From: Heptranchias perlo
Lineage: Eukaryota
Assembly (NCBI RefSeq): GCF_035084215.1
Contig: NC_090358.1
Span: 7,812,001-7,876,000, forward strand
Direction: 5' to 3'
DNA length: 64,000 nucleotides
The number at the start of each line of letters is the position of its first letter. The stretch's first letter is position 1. A model generated the notes under the pieces. That model was given only the letters and a program-made list of their open reading frames with translations, was not told the origin of the DNA and did not search any database. Positions 19,204 through 52,028 of the stretch are shown piece after piece. A program made the position numbers and the translations under genes.

Positions 19204-21417
19204 GGCACTGAGGACACCATCCAACGTGTTGTGTGGCACTACCACCGTGCTAAATGGGATAGATTCAGAACAGATCTAGCAGCTCAAAACTGGGCATCCA
19301 TGAGGCGCTGTGGGCCATCAGCAGCAGCAGAATTGTATTCCAGCACAATCTGTAACCTCATGGCCCGGCATATTCCTCACTCTACCATTACCAACAAGCC
19401 AGGGGATCAACCCTGGTTCAATGAGGAGTGTAGAAGAGCATGCCAGGAGCAGCACCAGGCGTACCTAAAAATGAGGTGCCAACCTGGTGAAGCTACAACT
19501 CAGGACTACATGCATGCTAAACAGCGGAAGCAACATGCTATAGACAGAGCTAAGCGATTCCACAACCAACGGATCAGATCAAAGCTTTGCAGTCCTGCCA
19601 CATCCAGTCGTGAATGGTGGTGGACAATTAAACAACTAACGGGAGGAGGAGGCTCTGCAAACATCCCCATTCTCAATGATGGTGGAGTCCAGCACGTGAG
19701 TGCAAAAGACAAGGCTGAAGCATTTGCAACCATCTTCAGCCAGAAGTGCCGAGTGGAAGATCCATCTCAGCCTCCTCCCGATATCCCCACCATCACGGAA
19801 GCCAGTCTTCGGCCAATTCGATTCACTCCACGTGATATCAAGAAACGGCTGAGTGCACTGGATACAGCAAAGGCTATGGGCCCCGACAACATCCCAGCTG
19901 TAGTGCTGAAGACTTGTGCTCCAGAACTAGCTGCGCCTCTAGCCAAGCTCTTCCAGTACAGCTACAACACTGGCATCTACTCGACAATGTGGAAAATTGC
20001 CCAGGTATGTCCTGTCCACAAAAAGCAGGACAAATCCAATCCGGCCAATTACCGCCCCATCAGTCTACTCTCAATCATCAGCAAAGTGATGGAAGGTGTC
20101 GTCGACAGTGCTATCAAGCGGCACTTACTCACCAATAACATGCTCACCGATGCTCAGTTTGGGTTCCGCCAGGACCACTCGGCTCCAGACCTCATTACAG
20201 CCCTGGTCCAAACATGGACAAAAGAGCTGAATTCCAGAGGTGAGGTGAGAGTGACTGCCCTTGACATCAAGGCAGCATTTGACCGAGTGTGGCACCAAGG
20301 AGCCCTAGTAAAATTGAAGTCAATGGGAATCAGGGGGAAAACTCTCCAGTGGCTGGAGTCATACCTAGCACAAAGGAAGATGGTAGTGGTTGTTGGAGGC
20401 CAATCATCTCAGCCCCAGGACATTGCTGCAGGAGTTCCTCAGGGCAGTGTCCTAGGCCCAACCATCTTCAGCTGTTTCATCAATGACCTTCCCTCCATCA
20501 TAAGGTCAGAAATGGGGATGTTCACTGATGACTGCACAGTGTTCAGTTCCATTCGCAACCCCTCAAATAATGAAGCAGTCCGAGCCCGCATGCAGCAAGA
20601 CCTGGACAACATCCAGGCTTGGGCAAGTAACTTTCGCGCCAGACAAGTGCCAGGCAATGACCATCTCCAACAAGAGAGAGTCTAACCACCTCCCCTTGAC
20701 ATTCAAATGCATTACCATCGCCGAATCCCCCACAATCAACATCCTGTGGGTCACCATTGACCAGAAACTTAACTGGACCAGCCATATAAATACTGTGGCT
20801 ACGAGAGCAGGTCAGAGGCTGGGTATTCTGCGGCGAGTGACTCACCTCCTGACTCCCCAAAGCCTTTCCACCATCTACAAGGCACAAGTCAGGAGTGTGA
20901 TGGAATACTCTCCACTTGCCTGGATGAGTGCATCTCCCAAAAACACTCAAGAAGCTCAACACCATCCAAGATAAAGCAGCCCGCTTGATTGGCACCCCAT
21001 CCACCACCCTAAACATTCACTCCCTTCACCACCGGCGCACTGTGGCTGCAGTGTGCACCATCCACAGGATGCACTGCAGCAACTCGCCAAGGCTTCTTCG
21101 ACAGCACCTCCCAAACCCGCGACCTCTACCACCTAGAAGGACAAGACCAGCAGGTACATGGGAACAACACCACCTGCACGTTCCCCTCCAAGTCACACAC
21201 CATCCCGACTTGGAAATATATCGCCGTTCCTTCATCGTCGCTGGGTCAAAATCCTGGAACTCCCTTCCTAACAGCACGGTGGGAGAACCGTCACCACACG
21301 GACTGCAGCGGTTCAAGAAGGCGGCTCACCACCACCTTCTCAAGGGCAATTAGGGATGGGCAATAAATGCTGGCCTCGCCAGCGACGCCCACATCCCGTG
21401 AATGAATTAAAAAAAAA
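19204..21417 (+). mobile_element. CR1-group LINE family 2, 5'-truncated, young copy B
   Basis: 495-aa ORF ([43 protein letters not shown]) continuing through frameshifts at ~20620 and ~20935 to ...HHHLLKGN*; AATAAA and poly(A) at 21409-21417. Confidence 0.96.
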
Positions 21418-21925: not shown

Positions 21926-22919
21926 GGATAATCTGATTGCTATTTGTAGCCAATGTATGAACGCATTCCAGCTATGTTTACGATGTTACCAACACTTGGT
22001 GACCAAAGGAAACCTTTCCCGCTGGTCCTTACAGCTCAGTAACACACCCGGCAGCGTAGTTACCAAACGACGCATGGGGGAAGCTGCTCTGTATGAATCC
22101 TTGAGATACTTCATCTGCTAAGAGCTGAACATCTTTCCTCAGTTTCCAGGAAGCATGAATGAATGGATGCTTGGCTGGAAACATCGGGAATAAGGGTGTT
22201 GCTGTAATGAGTCACTCTATCAACGGGTCTTGCTGGTATTATTTTTTAACTGACAGATTACTTGTAATATACAGAAAGTAAATCATTTTAAAACCCAGTC
22301 ATTTTTCCAGCTTCAAATCACATTAACACCGCGACATATAATTAGACTTGGCAATGATGCAGATAAACGTGGCTCGATAACAGAAGAGGCAAGGCCAAAC
22401 AATTATTTTTTAGCTAATCAGGGGAAAAAAATGAACAACTATTTGTTAGCTAACGTTACATTTTCAGCAAACCAAAATGTTCCTTAAAGAAATAAAAATG
22501 TTAAATCTTAGCAGGGATTTATCAATTATTTTAATTTTTAATTTGCTGTATTTATGTCCTTAAAACAATATTCTAAACAGCAGGAAGTGCAGTAGATTCT
22601 TTAGTAATGAAAAGAGTTGTTTTTAGAAATCCAATTATTCAACTTATATAGTTGGGAAACTGTGTCTCTGTTCACTGATTCATTCTGAATGACTATCTCA
22701 TGAAAATGCTAAATTGGCTTCTTTACCCTGAGCTTTTCTCATTTTGGATCTCAATAATTTAAGTTTCCTGCAGTTGTTAAGGCAGTTGGGTGTAATGCCC
22801 AGAATAATATGTTGTTTTAAGAGTACTTAATAAACTTACATTACTGAGACCCAAAATCAGAAGAGCTCAGGATAAAGAAGCCAATTTGGCATTTTCATGA
22901 GATAGTCATTCAGAATGAA

Positions 22920-23298
22920 TAAATTCTCCTCCTCATGTTCAAATCCCTCAGTAGCCTCACCCCTCCTTATCTCTGTAACCTCCTCCAGCCCTACAATCCT
23001 CAGCAAACTCTGCGTTCCTCCAATTCTGGCCTCTTGCGCACCCCCCAATTCCTTCGCCTTATCATTGGCGGCCGTGCCTTCAGCTGACTAGGCCCCAAGT
23101 TATGGAATTCCTTCCCTCAGCCTCTCCGCTCCTCTATCTCTCTCTCTTTAAGTCACCAATCTCTTTGACCAAGCTTTTGATCACCTGCCCTAATGTCTCC
23201 TTCCTTGGCTCGGTGTCTATTTTTGTCTGATTACGTTCCTGTGAAGCGCCTTGGGACATTATACTACGTTAAAGGCGCTATAAAAATGCAAGTTATTG
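22920..23298 (+). mobile_element. L2 LINE 3' end
   Basis: Homologous to 11820-12207, including the tail. Confidence 0.85.
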
Positions 23299-28490: not shown

Positions 28491-29412
28491 CTTGCACAAC
28501 ACCAGGTTATAGTCCAACAGTTTTATTTTAAATCACAAGCTTTCGGAGCTTACCTCCTTCGTCAGGTGAGTGAAGGGTTCTGAAAACGCATAGCATATAT
28601 AGTCAGAGAACAATGCCTGGTGATTAGAGATAATCTTTCCAACTGCCCCCTATCACATCTTGGCTGGGAGACGATCACAGCAATCAAAGGTGTCGTTGGT
28701 GTTCAGACAGGTTAGCCACGGAAAACATAACATCCCAGGATACTGAATACACAACGGGTCAGATTACAAAGACAGAGAGAGAAAGAGACCCGAAAGGCCA
28801 GTTGTATTAAAAACAGATAACTTTTTTTCACTGGTGGGGTTACATGTAGCATGACATGAACCCAAGATCCCGGTTGAGGCCGTCCTCATGGGTGCGGAAC
28901 TTGGCTATCAATTTCTGCTCGACGATTTTGCGTTGTCGTGTGTCTCGAAGGCCGCCTTGGAGAATGCTTACCTGAAGATCGGAGGCTGAATGTCCTTGAC
29001 TGCTGAAATGTTCCCCGACTGGATGGGAACCCTCCTGTCTGGCGATTGTTGTGTGGTGTCCGTTCATCCGTTGTCGCAGTGTCTGCATGGTCTCGCCGAT
29101 GTACCATGCTCCGGGGCATCCTTTCCTGCAACGTATGAGGTAGACAACGTTGGCCGAGTCACAGGAGTATGAACCATGTACCTGGTGGGTGGTGTCCTCT
29201 CGTGTGCTGGTGGTATCTGTGTCGATGATCTGGCATGTCTTGCAGAGTTTGCCGTGGCAGGGTTGTGTGGTGTCGTGGACGCTGTTCTCCTGAAAGTTGG
29301 GTAATTTGCTGCAAACGATGGTCTGTTTGAGGTTAGGTGGCTGTTTGAAGGCGAGTAGTGGAGGCGTGGGGATGGCCTTAGCGAGGTGTTCGTCGTCATC
29401 GATGACATGTTG
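28491..29412 (-). mobile_element. Penelope-like element 3' part (GIY-YIG endonuclease; Cys-rich linker suggests Neptune group) with terminal hammerhead
   Basis: PCHGKLCKTC..VVYLIRCRKGCPGAWYIGETMQTLRQRMNGH..PVGEHF..EQKLIAKF..GLNRD, followed by 3' UTR/pLTR. Confidence 0.93.
28533..28569 (-). ncRNA. Minimal type I hammerhead ribozyme in the PLE pLTR
   Basis: UCAC-CUGACGA-A-GGAG GUAAG CUCC-GAAA-GC-UU-GUGA. Confidence 0.78.
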
Positions 29413-30796
29413 GGGCCTCAATTATTCACAATATTTATTAACGACTTAGATGAAGGCATAGAAAGTCTCATATCTAAGTTTGCCGATGACACCAAGATTG
29501 GTGGCATTGTAAGCAGTGTAGATGAAAACATAAAATTACGAAGCGATATTGATAGATTAGGTGAATGGGCAAAACTGTGGCAAATGGAATTCAATGTAGA
29601 CAAATGTGAGGTCATCCACTTTGGACCAAAAAAGGATAGAACAGGGTACTTTCTAAATGGTTAAAAGTTAATAACAGTGGACGTCCAAAGGGACTTAGGG
29701 GTACAGGTACATAGATCATTGAAGTGTCATGAACAGGTGCAGAAAATAATCAATAAAGCTAATGGAATGCTGGCCTTTATATCTAGAGGACTAGAGTACA
29801 AGGGGGCAGAAGTTATGCTGCAGCTATACAAAACCCTGGTTAGACCGCACCTGGAGTACTGTGAGCAGTTCTGGGCACCGCACCTTCGGAAGGACATATT
29901 GGCCTTGGAGGGAGTGCAGCGTAGGTTTACTAGAATGATACCTGGACTTCAAGGGTTAAGTTACGAGGAGAGATTACACAAATTGGGGTTGTATTCTCTA
30001 GAGTTTCGAAGGTTAAGGGGTAATCTGATCAAAGTTTATAAGATATTAAGGGGAACAGATAGGGTGGATAGAGAGAAACTATTTCCGCTGGTTGGGAATT
30101 CTAGGAGTAGGGGGCACAGTCTAAAAATTAGAGCCAGACCTTTCAGGAGCGAGATTAGAAAACATTTCTACACACAAAGGGTGGTAGAAGCTTGGAACTC
30201 TCTTCCGCAAACGGCAATTGATACTAGCTCAATAACTAAATTTAAATCTGAGATAGATAGCTTTTGGCAACCAAAGGTATTAAGGGATATGGGCCAAAGG
30301 CAGATATATGGAGTTAGATCACAGATCAGCCATGATCTTATCGAATGGCGGAGCAGGCACGAGGGGCTGAATGGCCTACTCCTGTTCCTATGTTCCTATT
30401 AAGCACAAAAGTGAGCAAATATGAGCAGTACAAGATAGAAACCATACTCACATCAAGATGGATAAATTACCCTTTTCAAGAAACCACTATTCTGTTTTAG
30501 TCCATTTTCCTTTATCCTTCCTTCAGTTCATTTATTACCTGCCATCTCTCCTTTCTGGGCCAGGGAACCGTATTGACAAGAGGCAAGAAAGAAAACTCAA
30601 AGCCATTATTTTGTAAATCTGAAACTTTGTTAGAATAATTCCTGTTCAGAAGTCCCTCTAGCACTACACTTGGCCTCAGTATCTCCTGACCAGGGACTAG
30701 GAAATTCAGCCAGTGTTTCCTCTTCTGGTGTTTGTCCAGTGACCCCTGGTGGGAAATACAAATGAGAGGATACTCGGGCTTGGTGTGCGTGGTTGA

Positions 30797-39520: not shown

Positions 39521-40255
39521 CTCCCATTTACTTTCTGTATTCAAACTTTTGAATGTTGTATTCTTCCCCCAAATTAGCTCCATGAACACATTCTACATAC
39601 TTTATCTTCTGATATTTTAATATTCTTACAAATATAGCAAGAAGCACATTGAATTGTTCTTTAGAGCAAAACAGATCTTCTAATGAAAAACTTAACTGCA
39701 CTTCTCCACTATGGCATGGTCCAAGACCAAAAGGTTAAACAGCTCGAAGGAGGCCATTACCTTCCATTATTGCTGATAAATCCAGAGGCCGATAGATTGG
39801 GAGGGAGGAGACGAGATGCTGCTTCGTTCTTTAGTGTGCAACACCGTCTACTTGTGCAGTATTTCATAAAAAGCAGCAACAAAATAGCATAAATCCGAAG
39901 AGCCAAAGTCAAAGGAGCAGTTTACTGAAACTGTGACATTTTGGTTTAATAGGAAAAATATCAAGTTGTGTTTGAGGTTCCCACTATAAAAAGTAATAAA
40001 TTCAAAGAGTTCTAAAGCATTTGGCCTGTTCCACCAAAAAAATTACATGCAAGAAAAATTGGAACATCTGTTCTGAATTTTTCTGATAGTAAAATACACA
40101 TTCTTTCATGTGTACTTTTGTCTCAATCTCTAACAGCCTTAAGCATTTTGCCCCTATTCTCTTGGTCCCGTTGTCAGCTGCTTTGTTACACCGTTACTAT
40201 GGCTGCCTCAAGTTAATTTTACATATGGCAATTGGATGATTAGGCTGTGGGGCCA

Positions 40256-40358
40256 GTGTATGTGTGTGTGTGAGAGAGTGAGAGAGTGAGAGAGTGAAAG
40301 AGTGAGAGAGTGAGAGAGTGAGAGAGTGAGAGAGGAGTGTGAGTGAGTGAGAAAGAGT
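40256..40358. repeat. Compound (GT)n/(GAGAGTGA)n microsatellite
   Basis: Read directly. Confidence 0.9.
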
Positions 40359-40410
40359 GCAATGAATCTGATTTTAACAGTGCTGTTGAGCACAGCTTAT
40401 CCCTAACATG

Positions 40411-40620
40411 ATGTGGAGATGCGGTGATGGACTGGGGTTGACAATTGTAAACAATTTTACAACACCAAGTTATAGTCCAGCAATTTTATTTTAAATTCAC
40501 AAGCTTTCGGAGACTTCCTCCTTCCTCATTTACCTGAGGAAGGAGGAAGTCTCCGAAAGCTTGTGAATTTAAAATAAAATTGCTGGACTATAACTTGGTG
40601 TTGTAAAATTGTTTACAATT
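40411..40620 (-). mobile_element. Palindromic Penelope-like mini-insertion: perfect 86-bp inverted arms, 6-nt loop, tail, 14-bp TSD
   Basis: Arms 40443-40528 and 40535-40620 are exact reverse complements; tail 40411-40442; TTATCCCTAACATG at 40397-40410 and 40619-40632. Confidence 0.92.
40528..40568 (+). ncRNA. Minimal type I hammerhead ribozyme
   Basis: AUUUAC-CUGAGGA-A-GGAGG AAG UCUCC-GAAA-GC-UU-GUGAAU; predicted cleavage 3' of 40562. Confidence 0.78.
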
Positions 40621-41269
40621 ATCCCTAACATGGGATGCCCTCTAGTGGCAAATCTGTGTGCATGGAATGTACAGGACACATTCAAAAAGGCAGGAGTGTC
40701 CTCAGAGAGAACACACACTTATGGAAAGGGACAGATTAGTTGGACCTAATGGCCTCTTGTTGTCAAGAGTTTTCTTGTACAAAAATTTAGATTGGGCCTG
40801 ATTATTAACATGACAGCTATTCAAAGCAAATACCTGTTAATAATTATCAGTGTAACTTTCACAGTCAGCTCATCTCAATTCATCTGTCCAGAGAGAACCT
40901 AGTTTCTCCCATTATAGCATGCAACTGTTTAAATTATTCCGGGGTTTTGTCTCGACTGACCTATCCACAAGTCCATTCCATGTGTTGATCACTGTGAAGA
41001 ACTCCCTGCTATCAGTCGCAGTTTGCTTTTTGTCAGTTTCAACAAAAACATTTTCAACTGGTGCCCTCTTGGCTGGATTTAATATTTCTATACAGTTAAC
41101 TATCTTACATCTCAATGTAAGATCCTGGCTAAGTTACTTCTAATCAAAGCTAAACAGTTCAAGTTTTTAAATCTGCCCTCATTACCTATAGTGGTTTCCA
41201 AAATGCAGAACTGTAGTTATTTAAATACTAGGTACGTAGTAGCTAATTACCTAATACTAGATAGTACTA

Positions 41270-41620
41270 GGTATGAGGGATTAGAGTTATGAAGAGACTT
41301 TCAAAGCTAGGGCTTTTCCCATTAGAGCCGGGAAGATTAAAAGGTATCCTAATGGAGGTCTTCAAGATTATGAAAGTTATGATAGGGTAAACAAAGAGTT
41401 ATTTCCACTGGTTGGCATTATGATAATAAGAGGGCATAAATTGAAGATAATCACAAAAAGAATTCAACAGGAGGTTAGAAAAAATGTCTTTACATAAAAG
41501 ATGGGTAGAATGTGGAGCATTCCTCTGGGAACAGTTTTTGGAACATTGATCACAAATTATTTTAAACAAGGAATTTTATAGTTGTTTAAAATAGAATATT
41601 AAAGGGTACGCATATGGGGA
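41270..41620 (+). mobile_element. Old CR1 3' fragment
   Basis: Degenerate match to the GLSYEE..LGLFSL..RRLRGDL.EVFKI..RGH..K region. Confidence 0.65.
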
Positions 41621-50090: not shown

Positions 50091-52028
50091 AACATAAGAA
50101 ATAGGAGCAGGAGTAGGCCATATAGCCCCTCAAGCCTGCTCCGCCATTCAATAAGATCATTGCTGATCTTCAACATCAATTCCACTTTCCTGCCTGATCC
50201 CCATATCCCTTGATTCCCCTAGAGTCCAAAAATCTATCTATCTCAGCCTTGAATATACTCAATGACTCAGCATCCACAGCCCTGTGAGGTTGAGAATTCC
50301 AGAGATTCCAAATGAGGGAAGAAATTCCTCCTCATCTCAGTCTTAAAATGGCAACCCCCTTATCCTGAGACTATGCTCCAGTTCTAGACTCTCCAGCCAG
50401 GGGAAACAACCTCTCATCTTCTACCCTGTCAAGCCCCTTCAGAATCTTGTGTCAATGAGATCACCTATCATTCTTCTAAACTCCAGAGAGTATAGGCCCC
50501 TTGTACTCAATCTCTCCTCATAGGAGAACCCTCTCATCCCTGCAATCAATCTAGTGAACCTTCATTACACCACCTCTAAGGCAAGTATATCCTTCCTTAG
50601 ATAAGGAGACCAAAACTCTATGCAGTACTCCATGTGAGGTCTCGCCAAAGCTCTGTTCAATTGTAGCAAGACTTCCTTACTCTTGTACTCCAAACCCCTT
50701 GCAATAAAGGCCAACATGCTATTTGCCTTCCTAATTGCTTGCTGTACCTGCATGCTAACTTTTTGTGTTTCTTGTACCAGGACACCCAAGTCTCTCTGGA
50801 CACCAACATTTAATAGTTTCTCACCAAATATTCTCTTTTTCTATTCTTCCTACCAAAGTGAATAACCTCACATTTCCCCACATTATACTCCATCTGCCCA
50901 ATCATATAACCTGTCTATATCCTTTTGCAGATTGTGTCCTCGTCATAACTTACTTTCCCACCTAGCTTTGTATCATCAGCAAACTTGGATACATTACACT
51001 CAGTCCTTTTATCCAAGTCATTAATAGAGGTTGTAAATAGCTGAGGCCCAAGCACTGATCCTTGCGGACCCCACTAGTTTCAGCCTGCCAACCTGAAAAT
51101 GACCCATTTATCCCTACTCTTTTTTTCTGTCCGTTAACCAATCCTCTTCCCATGCTAATATATTACCCCCAACCCCATGAGCCCTTATCTTGTGTAACAA
51201 TCTTGTGTGGCACCTTATCGAATGCCTTTTGAAAATCCAAATATACGACATCCACTGGTTCCCCTTTATCTACCCTGCTAGTTACATCCTCAAAAAGTTC
51301 TAACAGGTTTGTCAAACACGATTTCTCTTTCATAAAACCATGTTGACTCTGCCTAATCATGATGTACTACGTGCCCTGTTACCACTTCCTTAATAATGGA
51401 TTCCAACATTTTCCCAACGACTGATGTCAGGCTAACTGGCCTGTAATTCCCTGTTTTCTCTCTCCCTCCTTTCTTGAATAGCTGGGTTATACCTTCCAAT
51501 CCGCTGGAACCATTCTAGAATCTAGGGAATTTTGGAAGATCATAACCAATGCACCCACTATCTCTGCAGCCACCTCTTTTAGAACCCTCGGATGTAGGCC
51601 ATCAACTCCAGGGGATTTATCGGCTTTTAATCCAGTTAGTTTCTCAAGTATATTTTCCTCTTCTGATGATAATTACTTTAAGTTCCTCACTAATTAGCCT
51701 CTTTGTTCTCCACTATTTCTTGAATGTTTTTCATGTCTTCTACTGCAAAGACAGATACAAAATATTTGTTTAATGCAACTGCCATTTCCTGATTCCTCAT
51801 TATCATTTCTCCTGCCTCAGCCTCTAGGGGACCAACATTTACTTTTGCTATTCTCTTCCTACTTACACACTTGTAGAAGCTCTTACAATCCATTTTTATA
51901 TTGCTTGCTGGTTTACTTTTATATTCTATTTTCTCCCTTGATAATCAATTTTTTGGTTGTCCTTTGTTGGTTTCTAAAACTCTCCCAATCCTCAGGCATA
52001 CTACTCTTCTTGGCAATATTATAGGCCT
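50091..52028 (-). mobile_element. CR1 LINE, 5'-truncated, same family as 811-1741
   Basis: KSFYKCVSRKR..LNKYFVSVF; IRQSQHGFMKEKSCLTNLLE..DVVYLDFQKAFDKVPH; VQQAIRKANSMLAFIARG; 3' UTR near-identical to 820-1100. Confidence 0.93.

What the first reader, a model, noticed from the sequence alone, without database searches (positions are those of the whole stretch)
40397..40632. Perfect palindromic ~210-bp mini-retroelement carrying a hammerhead ribozyme
Seen: two exact 86-bp inverted arms around a 6-nt loop, a 32-nt single-copy tail and a 14-bp target-site duplication (TTATCCCTAACATG). The + arm plus loop spells an intact minimal hammerhead (CUGAGGA core, GGAGG/UCUCC stem II, GAAAGCUU, 6-bp stem I). 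In the mirror arm the core is broken (AUGAGGA). Known: Penelope-like elements carry minimal type I hammerheads with palindromic stem III that are proposed to act as dimers, and PLE insertions often have an inverted partial pLTR and a short tail. Inference: this is a coding-free, ribozyme-bearing fold-back unit mobilised by a PLE. It looks like a MITE but is retro-derived. Identical arms suggest recent insertion, and a sister copy at 8.8 kb suggests a high-copy family.
Basis: partly seen in the sequence, partly recalled or inferred. Interest (0 to 1): 0.8.

Follow-up and report, generated by a model that had tools for sequence, protein, structure and literature searches.

The report
Mirror-image stump of a Penelope retrotransposon
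This perfect DNA palindrome is a stump left when a Penelope-type jumping gene copied only the first ~120 letters of its RNA twice, once into each side of a cut chromosome, so it is probably a dead by-product that records how these little-understood elements insert, not a new self-spreading ribozyme element.

Summary
The reading as a MITE-like unit that spreads as such is not supported. Both arms are the 5' end module (hammerhead to tail) of an autonomous Penelope-like element in this genome (3,083-bp unit, 902-aa RT/GIY-YIG ORF). About 10,800 such head-to-head stumps exist; this exact centre is 218 of them, in both tail orientations and several subfamilies. In 50 unselected stumps the tail is on one side in 47, on both in 0, and subfamily variants are mirrored in both arms. 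Clean target duplications are never under 12 bp. Arms mostly end about 30 nt downstream of a conserved TATA box, and that edge shifts with the TATA spacing. Best model: both ends of a 12-nt staggered cut prime reverse transcription at two sites 35 nt apart, both cDNAs run off the RNA 5' end and are joined by microhomology. The hammerhead is a passenger, masked by the hairpin. The start site is inferred, not mapped. The scan noted similar stumps in other genomes.

The parts
40397..40410 (+). Left copy of the target duplication (14 nt); its last 4 nt also match the element at -1..+2, i.e. microhomology at the distal priming site
40411..40442 (-). PLE 'tail' (-34..-2 relative to the ORF ATG of the autonomous element), present on one arm only; this copy lacks 1 nt that the other 29 aligned loci carry
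40443..40528 (-). Tailed arm, -35..-120 of the pLTR; inferred cDNA primed at the distal site; starts inside the hammerhead core, so the core is broken
40527..40534 (+). Centre: 2-nt microhomology (CA) plus 6-nt loop; the loop is the extra 5' sequence (-128..-121) of the tail-less arm
40535..40620 (+). Tail-less arm, ending at -35; inferred cDNA primed at the proximal site
40528..40568 (+). Minimal type I hammerhead motif of the PLE pLTR (predicted cut after 40562); masked by the 86-bp hairpin in a transcript of the stump
   Evidence: activity not tested
40619..40632 (+). Right copy of the target duplication; first 2 nt shared with the arm end (microhomology at the proximal site)
8767..8987 (+). 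Sister stump with a different centre (tail-less arm -35..-122, tailed arm from -89), 12-nt duplication read by eye at 8767-8778 and 8976-8987
28496..29421 (-). Older, longer arm of another subfamily of the same PLE, running from the pLTR through the TATA box into the endonuclease coding region

Best explanation
A de novo, probably dead, insertion product of an autonomous endonuclease-positive Penelope-like element (Neptune/Nematis type). Steps: (1, shown) the arms are the element's 5' end module; (2, inferred from the duplications) the enzyme cuts both strands 12 nt apart, leaving two 3' ends; (3, inferred, in line with the in vitro work on the anole element) each end primes reverse transcription on the sense RNA with 1-2 nt of pairing, one at about the ORF start (0) and one at about -35, so the 'tail' is the stretch between the two start points and lies on one arm only; (4, inferred) when priming is in the 5' pLTR, both cDNAs soon run off the RNA 5' end, about 30 nt downstream of a TATA box and just upstream of the hammerhead; (5, inferred) the two cDNA 3' ends are trimmed and joined by microhomology or with small templated inserts, giving a head-to-head palindrome with a different centre each time. 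The hammerhead is carried along because it sits at the RNA 5' end.
For: Autonomous element in tandem with the same module (RVT_1 hit; DKG, C-x4-CxxC and CCHH read from the translation). 10,836 head-to-head loci, control 0; 50,720 exact tail motifs. Of 92 tail-anchored arms, 61 have an inverted piece within 1.4 kb upstream, 46 with its outer end at -28..-45. Of 50 unselected stumps: tail on one side 47, both 0, none found 3; 50 distinct centre strings. Arms identical over 39 diagnostic nt within 28 of 50 loci against 73 of 2,450 between-locus pairs; a subfamily variant is mirrored in 13 of 13 carriers. Ends cluster at -2..+2 (59 of 71) and -38..-35 (55 of 71); duplication 12 nt in 33 of 55 clean cases, none shorter; overlap with the template 1.76 and 1.91 nt against a null of about 0.7. 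A few loci have arms of two subfamilies (L222, L218, L154; L185). TATA box kept across subfamilies, 22,787 loci. Of 92 tailed arms, 41 align only up to TATA+27..+49 (38 after removing three long arms of other subfamilies), 1 ends between TATA-20 and +14. Long-spacer subfamily: 15,217, 12,117 and 4,270 copies reach 9, 13 and 20 nt upstream of the core; short-spacer subfamily: 7,554 and 5,918 reach 9 and 13, and 26 of 35 that reach 13 go on to the TATA box (rows compared by eye). Frangieh 2024 (PMC11167929): PLE protein cuts and extends both strands, starts at two sites flanking the tail, hammerhead not needed.
Against: No RNA 5' ends were seen: the start site rests on the TATA motif alone. In my own sample the test of TATA against hammerhead anchoring was inconclusive (slope -0.48, CI -1.05 to 0.11), the loss between 9 and 13 nt is about the same in both subfamilies (22% and 20%), and 10 of 92 arms end at TATA+15..+25, upstream of the predicted start. 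Most stumps have matching arms, which fold-back would also give; 22 of 50 do not match over the 39 nt, and most of these differences may be later mutation. Frangieh 2024 found priming without homology in vitro, unlike the 1-2 nt excess here, and 16 of 71 loci without a clean duplication were left out of that count; the proximal mean was reached by the extreme tail of the null (max 2.02). The exact centre is skewed 18:7. D. virilis Penelope has a TATA-less internal promoter (PMC2377424). Samples come mostly from the first 13 Mb of one contig.
Confidence: 0.68

Rival explanations
1. Fold-back self-priming makes the mirror arm: one cDNA (or an antisense template) snaps back on 2-6 nt and copies itself, as proposed for PLE inverted repeats by Arkhipova et al. 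2013.
For: Arms usually identical, private variants mirrored (L173, L176, L177); centres often sit on short palindromes or microhomologies; PMC3846280 Discussion.
Against: Fold-back alone cannot put the tail on the shorter arm, as here and in 18 of 25 clean loci with this centre or 16 of 26 one-arm-intact stumps; a second priming event is still needed. Centres that join two subfamilies (L222) cannot be fold-backs. It may still be the joining step in many copies.
Confidence: 0.15
2. Two primings as in the best model, but the common end point is a reverse-transcriptase stall or a trimming limit set by the hammerhead fold or the bound protein, not the RNA 5' end.
For: Ends lie at the 5' edge of stem I; sample test of anchoring inconclusive; shoulder of ends upstream of the predicted start.
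Against: A stall is expected on the 3' side of a structure (general knowledge), whereas these ends lie beyond it; the main drop moves to 13-19 nt upstream of the core when the TATA spacer is 6 nt longer.
Confidence: 0.12
3. A non-autonomous, MITE-like palindromic unit with a working ribozyme, copied from master stumps by the PLE enzyme.
For: 218 loci share the exact centre; the 40 best hits are near-identical full palindromes; dispersed, with duplications.
Against: Those 40 were picked by likeness to the query; the centre is about 2% of stumps, in both orientations and several subfamilies; outer ends run on into sequence that the stump lacks (L015 to +25); no promoter, no ORF start; hammerhead masked.
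Confidence: 0.04
4. Assembly artefact.
For: Long perfect palindromes can be artefacts; no record spanning the whole stretch was listed.
Against: Thousands of loci with distinct centres and 12-nt duplications; contigs of a run of the same sample reach from both flanks 29-30 nt into the element (just under the tool's 31-letter bar, and not independent of the assembled sample).
Confidence: 0.01

Closest known systems
Insertions of endonuclease-positive Penelope-like elements with an inverted 5'-truncated copy and a 30-40-bp tail (Craig 2021 PMC8557442; Arkhipova 2013 PMC3846280; Schostak 2008 PMC2377424)
   Same: Head-to-head inverted arms, tail on one end, target duplication, hammerhead in the pLTR, TATA/Inr-like motif in the pLTR (rotifer Pen2a).
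   Different: Here both arms are cut down to the ~120-nt 5' module, at about 10,800 loci, with a sharp 12-nt minimum duplication and an end point tied to the TATA spacing; published accounts seen invoke self-priming or EN-mediated resolution.
PAc/Poseidon in vitro mechanism (Frangieh 2024, PMC11167929)
   Same: Two initiation sites flanking the tail, both strands cut and extended, predicted dimer, hammerhead dispensable.
   Different: Different clade; there the sites lie inside the ORF, here at -35 and 0; priming there without homology, here 1-2 nt excess; the text read does not derive the inverted arm from the two primings or describe run-off stumps.
Minimal PLE hammerheads (Cervera and de la Pena 2014, PMC4209133)
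   Same: Core, extra base before stem II, G-C closing pair, palindromic stem III; that paper also notes opposite-strand pairs 100-700 bp apart in Schistosoma.
   Different: Here the pair is back to back and one core is clipped; activity untested.
Non-LTR retrozymes (Li 2026, 10.64898/2026.07.22.740005)
   Same: Coding-free, pLTR-derived, type I hammerhead.
   Different: Retrozymes are head-to-tail tandem units with two working ribozymes; this is head-to-head with one masked motif.
LINE-1 twin priming (recalled, not read here)
   Same: Second target strand primes on the RNA and gives an inversion joined by microhomology.
   Different: In L1 the two cDNAs cover different parts of the RNA; here they overlap almost wholly and start at fixed sites.
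MITEs
   Same: Short, coding-free, inverted repeats, high copy, duplication.
   Different: Asymmetric tail, variable centre, 12-nt duplication, derived from an RT element.

Membership tests
Penelope-like element insertion (EN+) | Sequence belongs to the pLTR of an element with one RT + C-terminal GIY-YIG ORF | tested here: met
   95-98% identity to the pLTR of a 3,083-bp tandem unit with a 902-aa ORF; RVT_1 E 3e-10; GIY-YIG read by eye from the translation, no Pfam hit for it
Penelope-like element insertion (EN+) | 30-40-bp tail on one end | tested here: met
   32 nt here; one side in 47 of 50, both in 0
Penelope-like element insertion (EN+) | Inverted 5'-truncated copy, whole unit flanked by a target duplication | tested here: met
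Neptune/Nematis clades | CX2-5CxxC linker before the GIY-YIG domain, CCHH motif, DKG | tested here: met
   Motifs read in the ORF against the definitions in PMC8557442
Neptune/Nematis clades | Placement in an RT tree (Neptune against Nematis) | not tested
   No reference set fetched; Li 2026 lists Neptune and Poseidon as the PLE groups in vertebrates
Minimal type I hammerhead | Core CUGANGA/GAAA/UH, stems I and II, palindromic 15.2-16.2 | tested here: met
   among 79 TATA-bearing pLTRs (36 variants, picked by a pattern that demands the core) stems I and II mostly stay paired while the loop varies; no Rfam hit
Minimal type I hammerhead | Self-cleavage (as dimer or with protein) | not testable with these tools
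   Co-folding of two copies did not give the active dimer as lowest-energy form; genomic trace of cleavage inconclusive
MITE-like non-autonomous family | Copies descend from a master with fixed internal structure | tested here: not met
Non-LTR retrozyme | Head-to-tail tandem units each with an intact hammerhead | tested here: not met
   Head-to-head, one core broken

The most novel reading that the evidence does not exclude
Penelope-like elements have a retrovirus-like 'strong-stop' step, on both strands at once: the dimeric enzyme opens a 12-nt staggered break and primes two short cDNAs in the 5' pLTR, 100-135 nt from the cap; full-length and tandem copies arise only when these cDNAs are transferred to the 3' pLTR or run round a ribozyme-made circle, and the ~10,800 palindromic stumps are the failed transfers, repaired by end joining. 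This would explain tail, inverted pLTR and tandem pLTR by one mechanism.
Probability: 0.3. Interest if true: 0.8.

Novelty: new variant of a known kind. Interest (0 to 1): 0.5.

Why it matters
How Penelope-like elements make their inverted repeats and one-sided tail is stated as open in the papers read (PMC8557442, PMC3846280, PMC11167929). A genome with about 10,800 minimal products gives exact, countable predictions: a 12-nt stagger, two priming points 35 nt apart, and a stop tied to the promoter. A young intact 902-aa copy is at hand to test them. For annotation, such stumps will be mistaken for MITEs or miRNA hairpins, and they seed the genome with thousands of perfect ~90-bp hairpins that could yield double-stranded RNA. 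As a ribozyme element in its own right it is not new.

Tried and rejected
Rfam at gathering score over the window and at E<=10 over the element: no hammerhead family; miRNA hits are hairpin look-alikes far below threshold. First similarity search suggested one fixed family; rejected as selection by likeness once unselected patterns were used. Sequencing runs: no RNA holder listed, contigs only, so no RNA start or cut site could be read; laying four runs on 40362-41300 showed no empty allele and no record across the whole element, and two other organisms hold parts of the same module. A second stop at the hammerhead cut site: among the 50 listed of 1,232 mid-length palindromes a modest excess of short-arm ends near the cut site was seen by eye, but stem I itself creates microhomology there, so inconclusive. 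Regression of stop position on TATA spacing in the fetched sample: inconclusive. Cap signature (an extra G at the stop): none seen by eye. Co-folded dimer not the active form. No protein homology search or structure job was run; the clade call rests on motifs. [quoted passage not shown]

Full report
Observation. The arms 40443-40528 and 40535-40620 are exact 86-nt reverse complements around TTTACC, with a 32-nt single-copy part at 40411-40442 and a 14-nt direct repeat on both sides. The + arm with the loop reads as a minimal type I hammerhead with a predicted cut after 40562; the centroid fold shows stems I and II but is no better than shuffles, and Rfam gives no hammerhead hit. The window lies in a 3.25-Gb genome; the repeats resemble those of cartilaginous fish from recall only, which I did not test.

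Source element. One related locus ran on 25 nt past the tail (L015). Searching with that stretch found a tandem unit of 3,083 bp with a 902-aa ORF and 374 nt between stop and next ATG. The protein hits RVT_1 and shows DKG, a C-x4-CxxC linker and a GIY-YIG domain with CCHH by eye, which fits Neptune or Nematis as defined in PMC8557442 (passages). Counted from the ATG, the stump's tailed arm covers -120 to about +2 on the minus strand and its tail-less arm -128 to -35 on the plus strand. Long copies have the same head-to-head layout with variable breakpoints, one outer end near -35 and one near 0.

One master or many events? The 40 scored hits of 821 candidates were all full palindromes, and 28 of the 30 fetched had the same loop, but they were chosen by likeness. 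A pattern that leaves the centre free finds 10,836 loci, control 0. The exact centre is 218 loci. Of 30 of these, 18 carry the tail on the broken arm as here, 7 on the intact arm, 5 are complex, and at least four sequence variants occur. In 50 stumps taken in genome order, the centre strings are all distinct, though some microhomology joins recur in different subfamilies; the tail is on one side in 47, both in 0, not found in 3. Subfamily variants are mirrored: 13 of 13; arms identical over 39 diagnostic nt in 28 of 50 loci against 3% between loci. So both arms are made at insertion from the same kind of template. A few loci join arms of two subfamilies (L222, L218, L154; L185), which needs two templates.

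Outer ends. Among 71 stumps (unselected and same-centre sets pooled) the tail end lies at -2..+2 in 59 and the other end at -38..-35 in 55. In the 55 with a clean duplication it is 12 nt in 33, 13-15 in 22, never 10 or 11; 16 loci without a clean duplication were left out. Overlap of duplication and template averages 1.76 and 1.91 nt against about 0.7 for random flanks. This points to a 12-nt staggered cut whose two 3' ends prime with 1-2 nt of pairing. The 14 nt here fit 12 plus overlap. Frangieh 2024 (PMC11167929; parts 1-2 of 4 read) showed for an anole PLE that both strands are cut and extended, that synthesis starts at two sites that flank the tail, that the protein is a predicted dimer and that hammerhead mutants insert normally; they report priming without homology, which differs from the small excess here.

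Inner ends. Of 92 tail-anchored arms from 87 loci in the first 6 Mb of one contig, 29 align past a conserved TATA box, 1 ends at TATA+3, 10 at +15..+25, 41 at +27..+49 and 11 further down; three of the 41 (L083, L100, L111) are long arms of subfamilies missing from my donor set, and two of the 10 look like one duplicated event. The TATA motif is kept across divergent subfamilies 36-47 nt upstream of the core (22,787 loci), and a Pol II start is expected about 30 nt behind it (established knowledge). If arms run off the RNA start, the edge should move with the spacer. In my sample the medians fit (TATA+29 and +30) but the test was inconclusive. Whole-genome counts are clearer: with the 46-nt spacer 15,217 copies reach 9 nt upstream of the core, 12,117 reach 13 and only 4,270 reach 20; with the 40-nt spacer 7,554 reach 9 and 5,918 reach 13, and 26 of 35 of the latter go on to the TATA box (rows compared by eye). 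The loss from 9 to 13 is alike in both (22%, 20%), so only the later drop discriminates; T-run variants may lower the last count a little. Palindromes with shorter total length are far fewer (1,232 with a stricter anchor). The start site itself was not observed: only contigs were available.

Mechanism. Shown: source, layout, one-sided tail, variable centres, 12-nt minimum, pile-up of ends. Inferred: two primings, run-off at the RNA start, trimming and microhomology joining. Here the tail-less cDNA reached -128, 2-3 nt short of the predicted start, the tailed one ends at -120, and they share CA. Arkhipova 2013 (PMC3846280; passages and Discussion) explains head-to-head repeats by self-priming on an antisense template and notes TATA/Inr motifs in pLTRs. 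Fold-back alone cannot give a tail on the shorter arm, nor a centre between two subfamilies, but could be the joining step. Schostak 2008 (passages) places the Drosophila promoter in the pLTR but TATA-less.

The ribozyme. Stems I and II are mostly kept among 79 TATA-bearing pLTRs, so the motif is probably selected in the autonomous element. In a transcript of the stump the hairpin is -151 kcal/mol and forcing stem I gives -93; the other strand has a broken core. Cervera 2014 (parts 1-2 of 4) found such motifs inactive as monomers and weak as dimers, and noted opposite-strand pairs. Li 2026 (parts 1-3 of 5) covers tandem retrozymes, a different layout. A trace of cleavage in arm ends was inconclusive.

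Novelty. The layout is known for PLEs. I found no paper that derives it from two primings with run-off at the start site (searches; subscription papers and supplements not seen, and Fig. S2 of PMC11167929 may bear on it). A look-up by sequence in the scan's notes found nothing; by words it found two reports on other genomes that agree on rebuilt centres and on ends upstream of the hammerhead; I read them after forming this view and they are not independent proof. Verdict: real, a new variant of a known kind, valuable as a mass record of PLE insertion; interest 0.5.

Noticed in passing
window 22678-22920: Another self-inverted stretch of about 245 nt at 79% arm identity, unrelated to the PLE; possibly an old MITE or foldback element.
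   Followed up: no
window 6195-7689 and 19613-21416: Two 95%-identical copies of a LINE-type RT ORF fragment in opposite orientation, 388 and 500 codons open.
   Followed up: no
window 815-1742, 29413-30402, 50091-51055: Copies of a second, older LINE-like family with an RT C-terminal frame; several 200-450-nt SINE-like repeats at 3.0, 3.9, 10.2, 11.2, 15.6, 17.2, 34.1 and 44.5 kb.
   Followed up: no
window 40254-40362: 8-nt GA-rich tandem repeat 35 nt upstream of the insertion.
   Followed up: no
L061 (G000:C1:188732800-188742700), L062, L063, L120: Young PLE copies in tandem arrays of 3,083 bp, 99-100% identical; the L061 copy translated has an open 902-aa ORF; a candidate active element for biochemistry.
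   Followed up: partly
L164, L157, L091, L181, L192, L209: Centres with short repeated copies of nearby element sequence, like templated insertions of polymerase-theta end joining (resemblance recalled).
   Followed up: no
L100, L107, L111, L207: A further subfamily with a different sequence upstream of the hammerhead and a variant TATA-like box.
   Followed up: no
window 40362-41300, run X5: Contigs of a same-sample run guessed to be RNA cover both flanks at low depth, so the locus may lie in a transcribed region; the run may hold DNA.
   Followed up: no
L131 and L133 (G000:C1 about 4.00 and 4.01 Mb): The same stump with the same centre twice, 12 kb apart, probably a local segmental duplication.
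   Followed up: no
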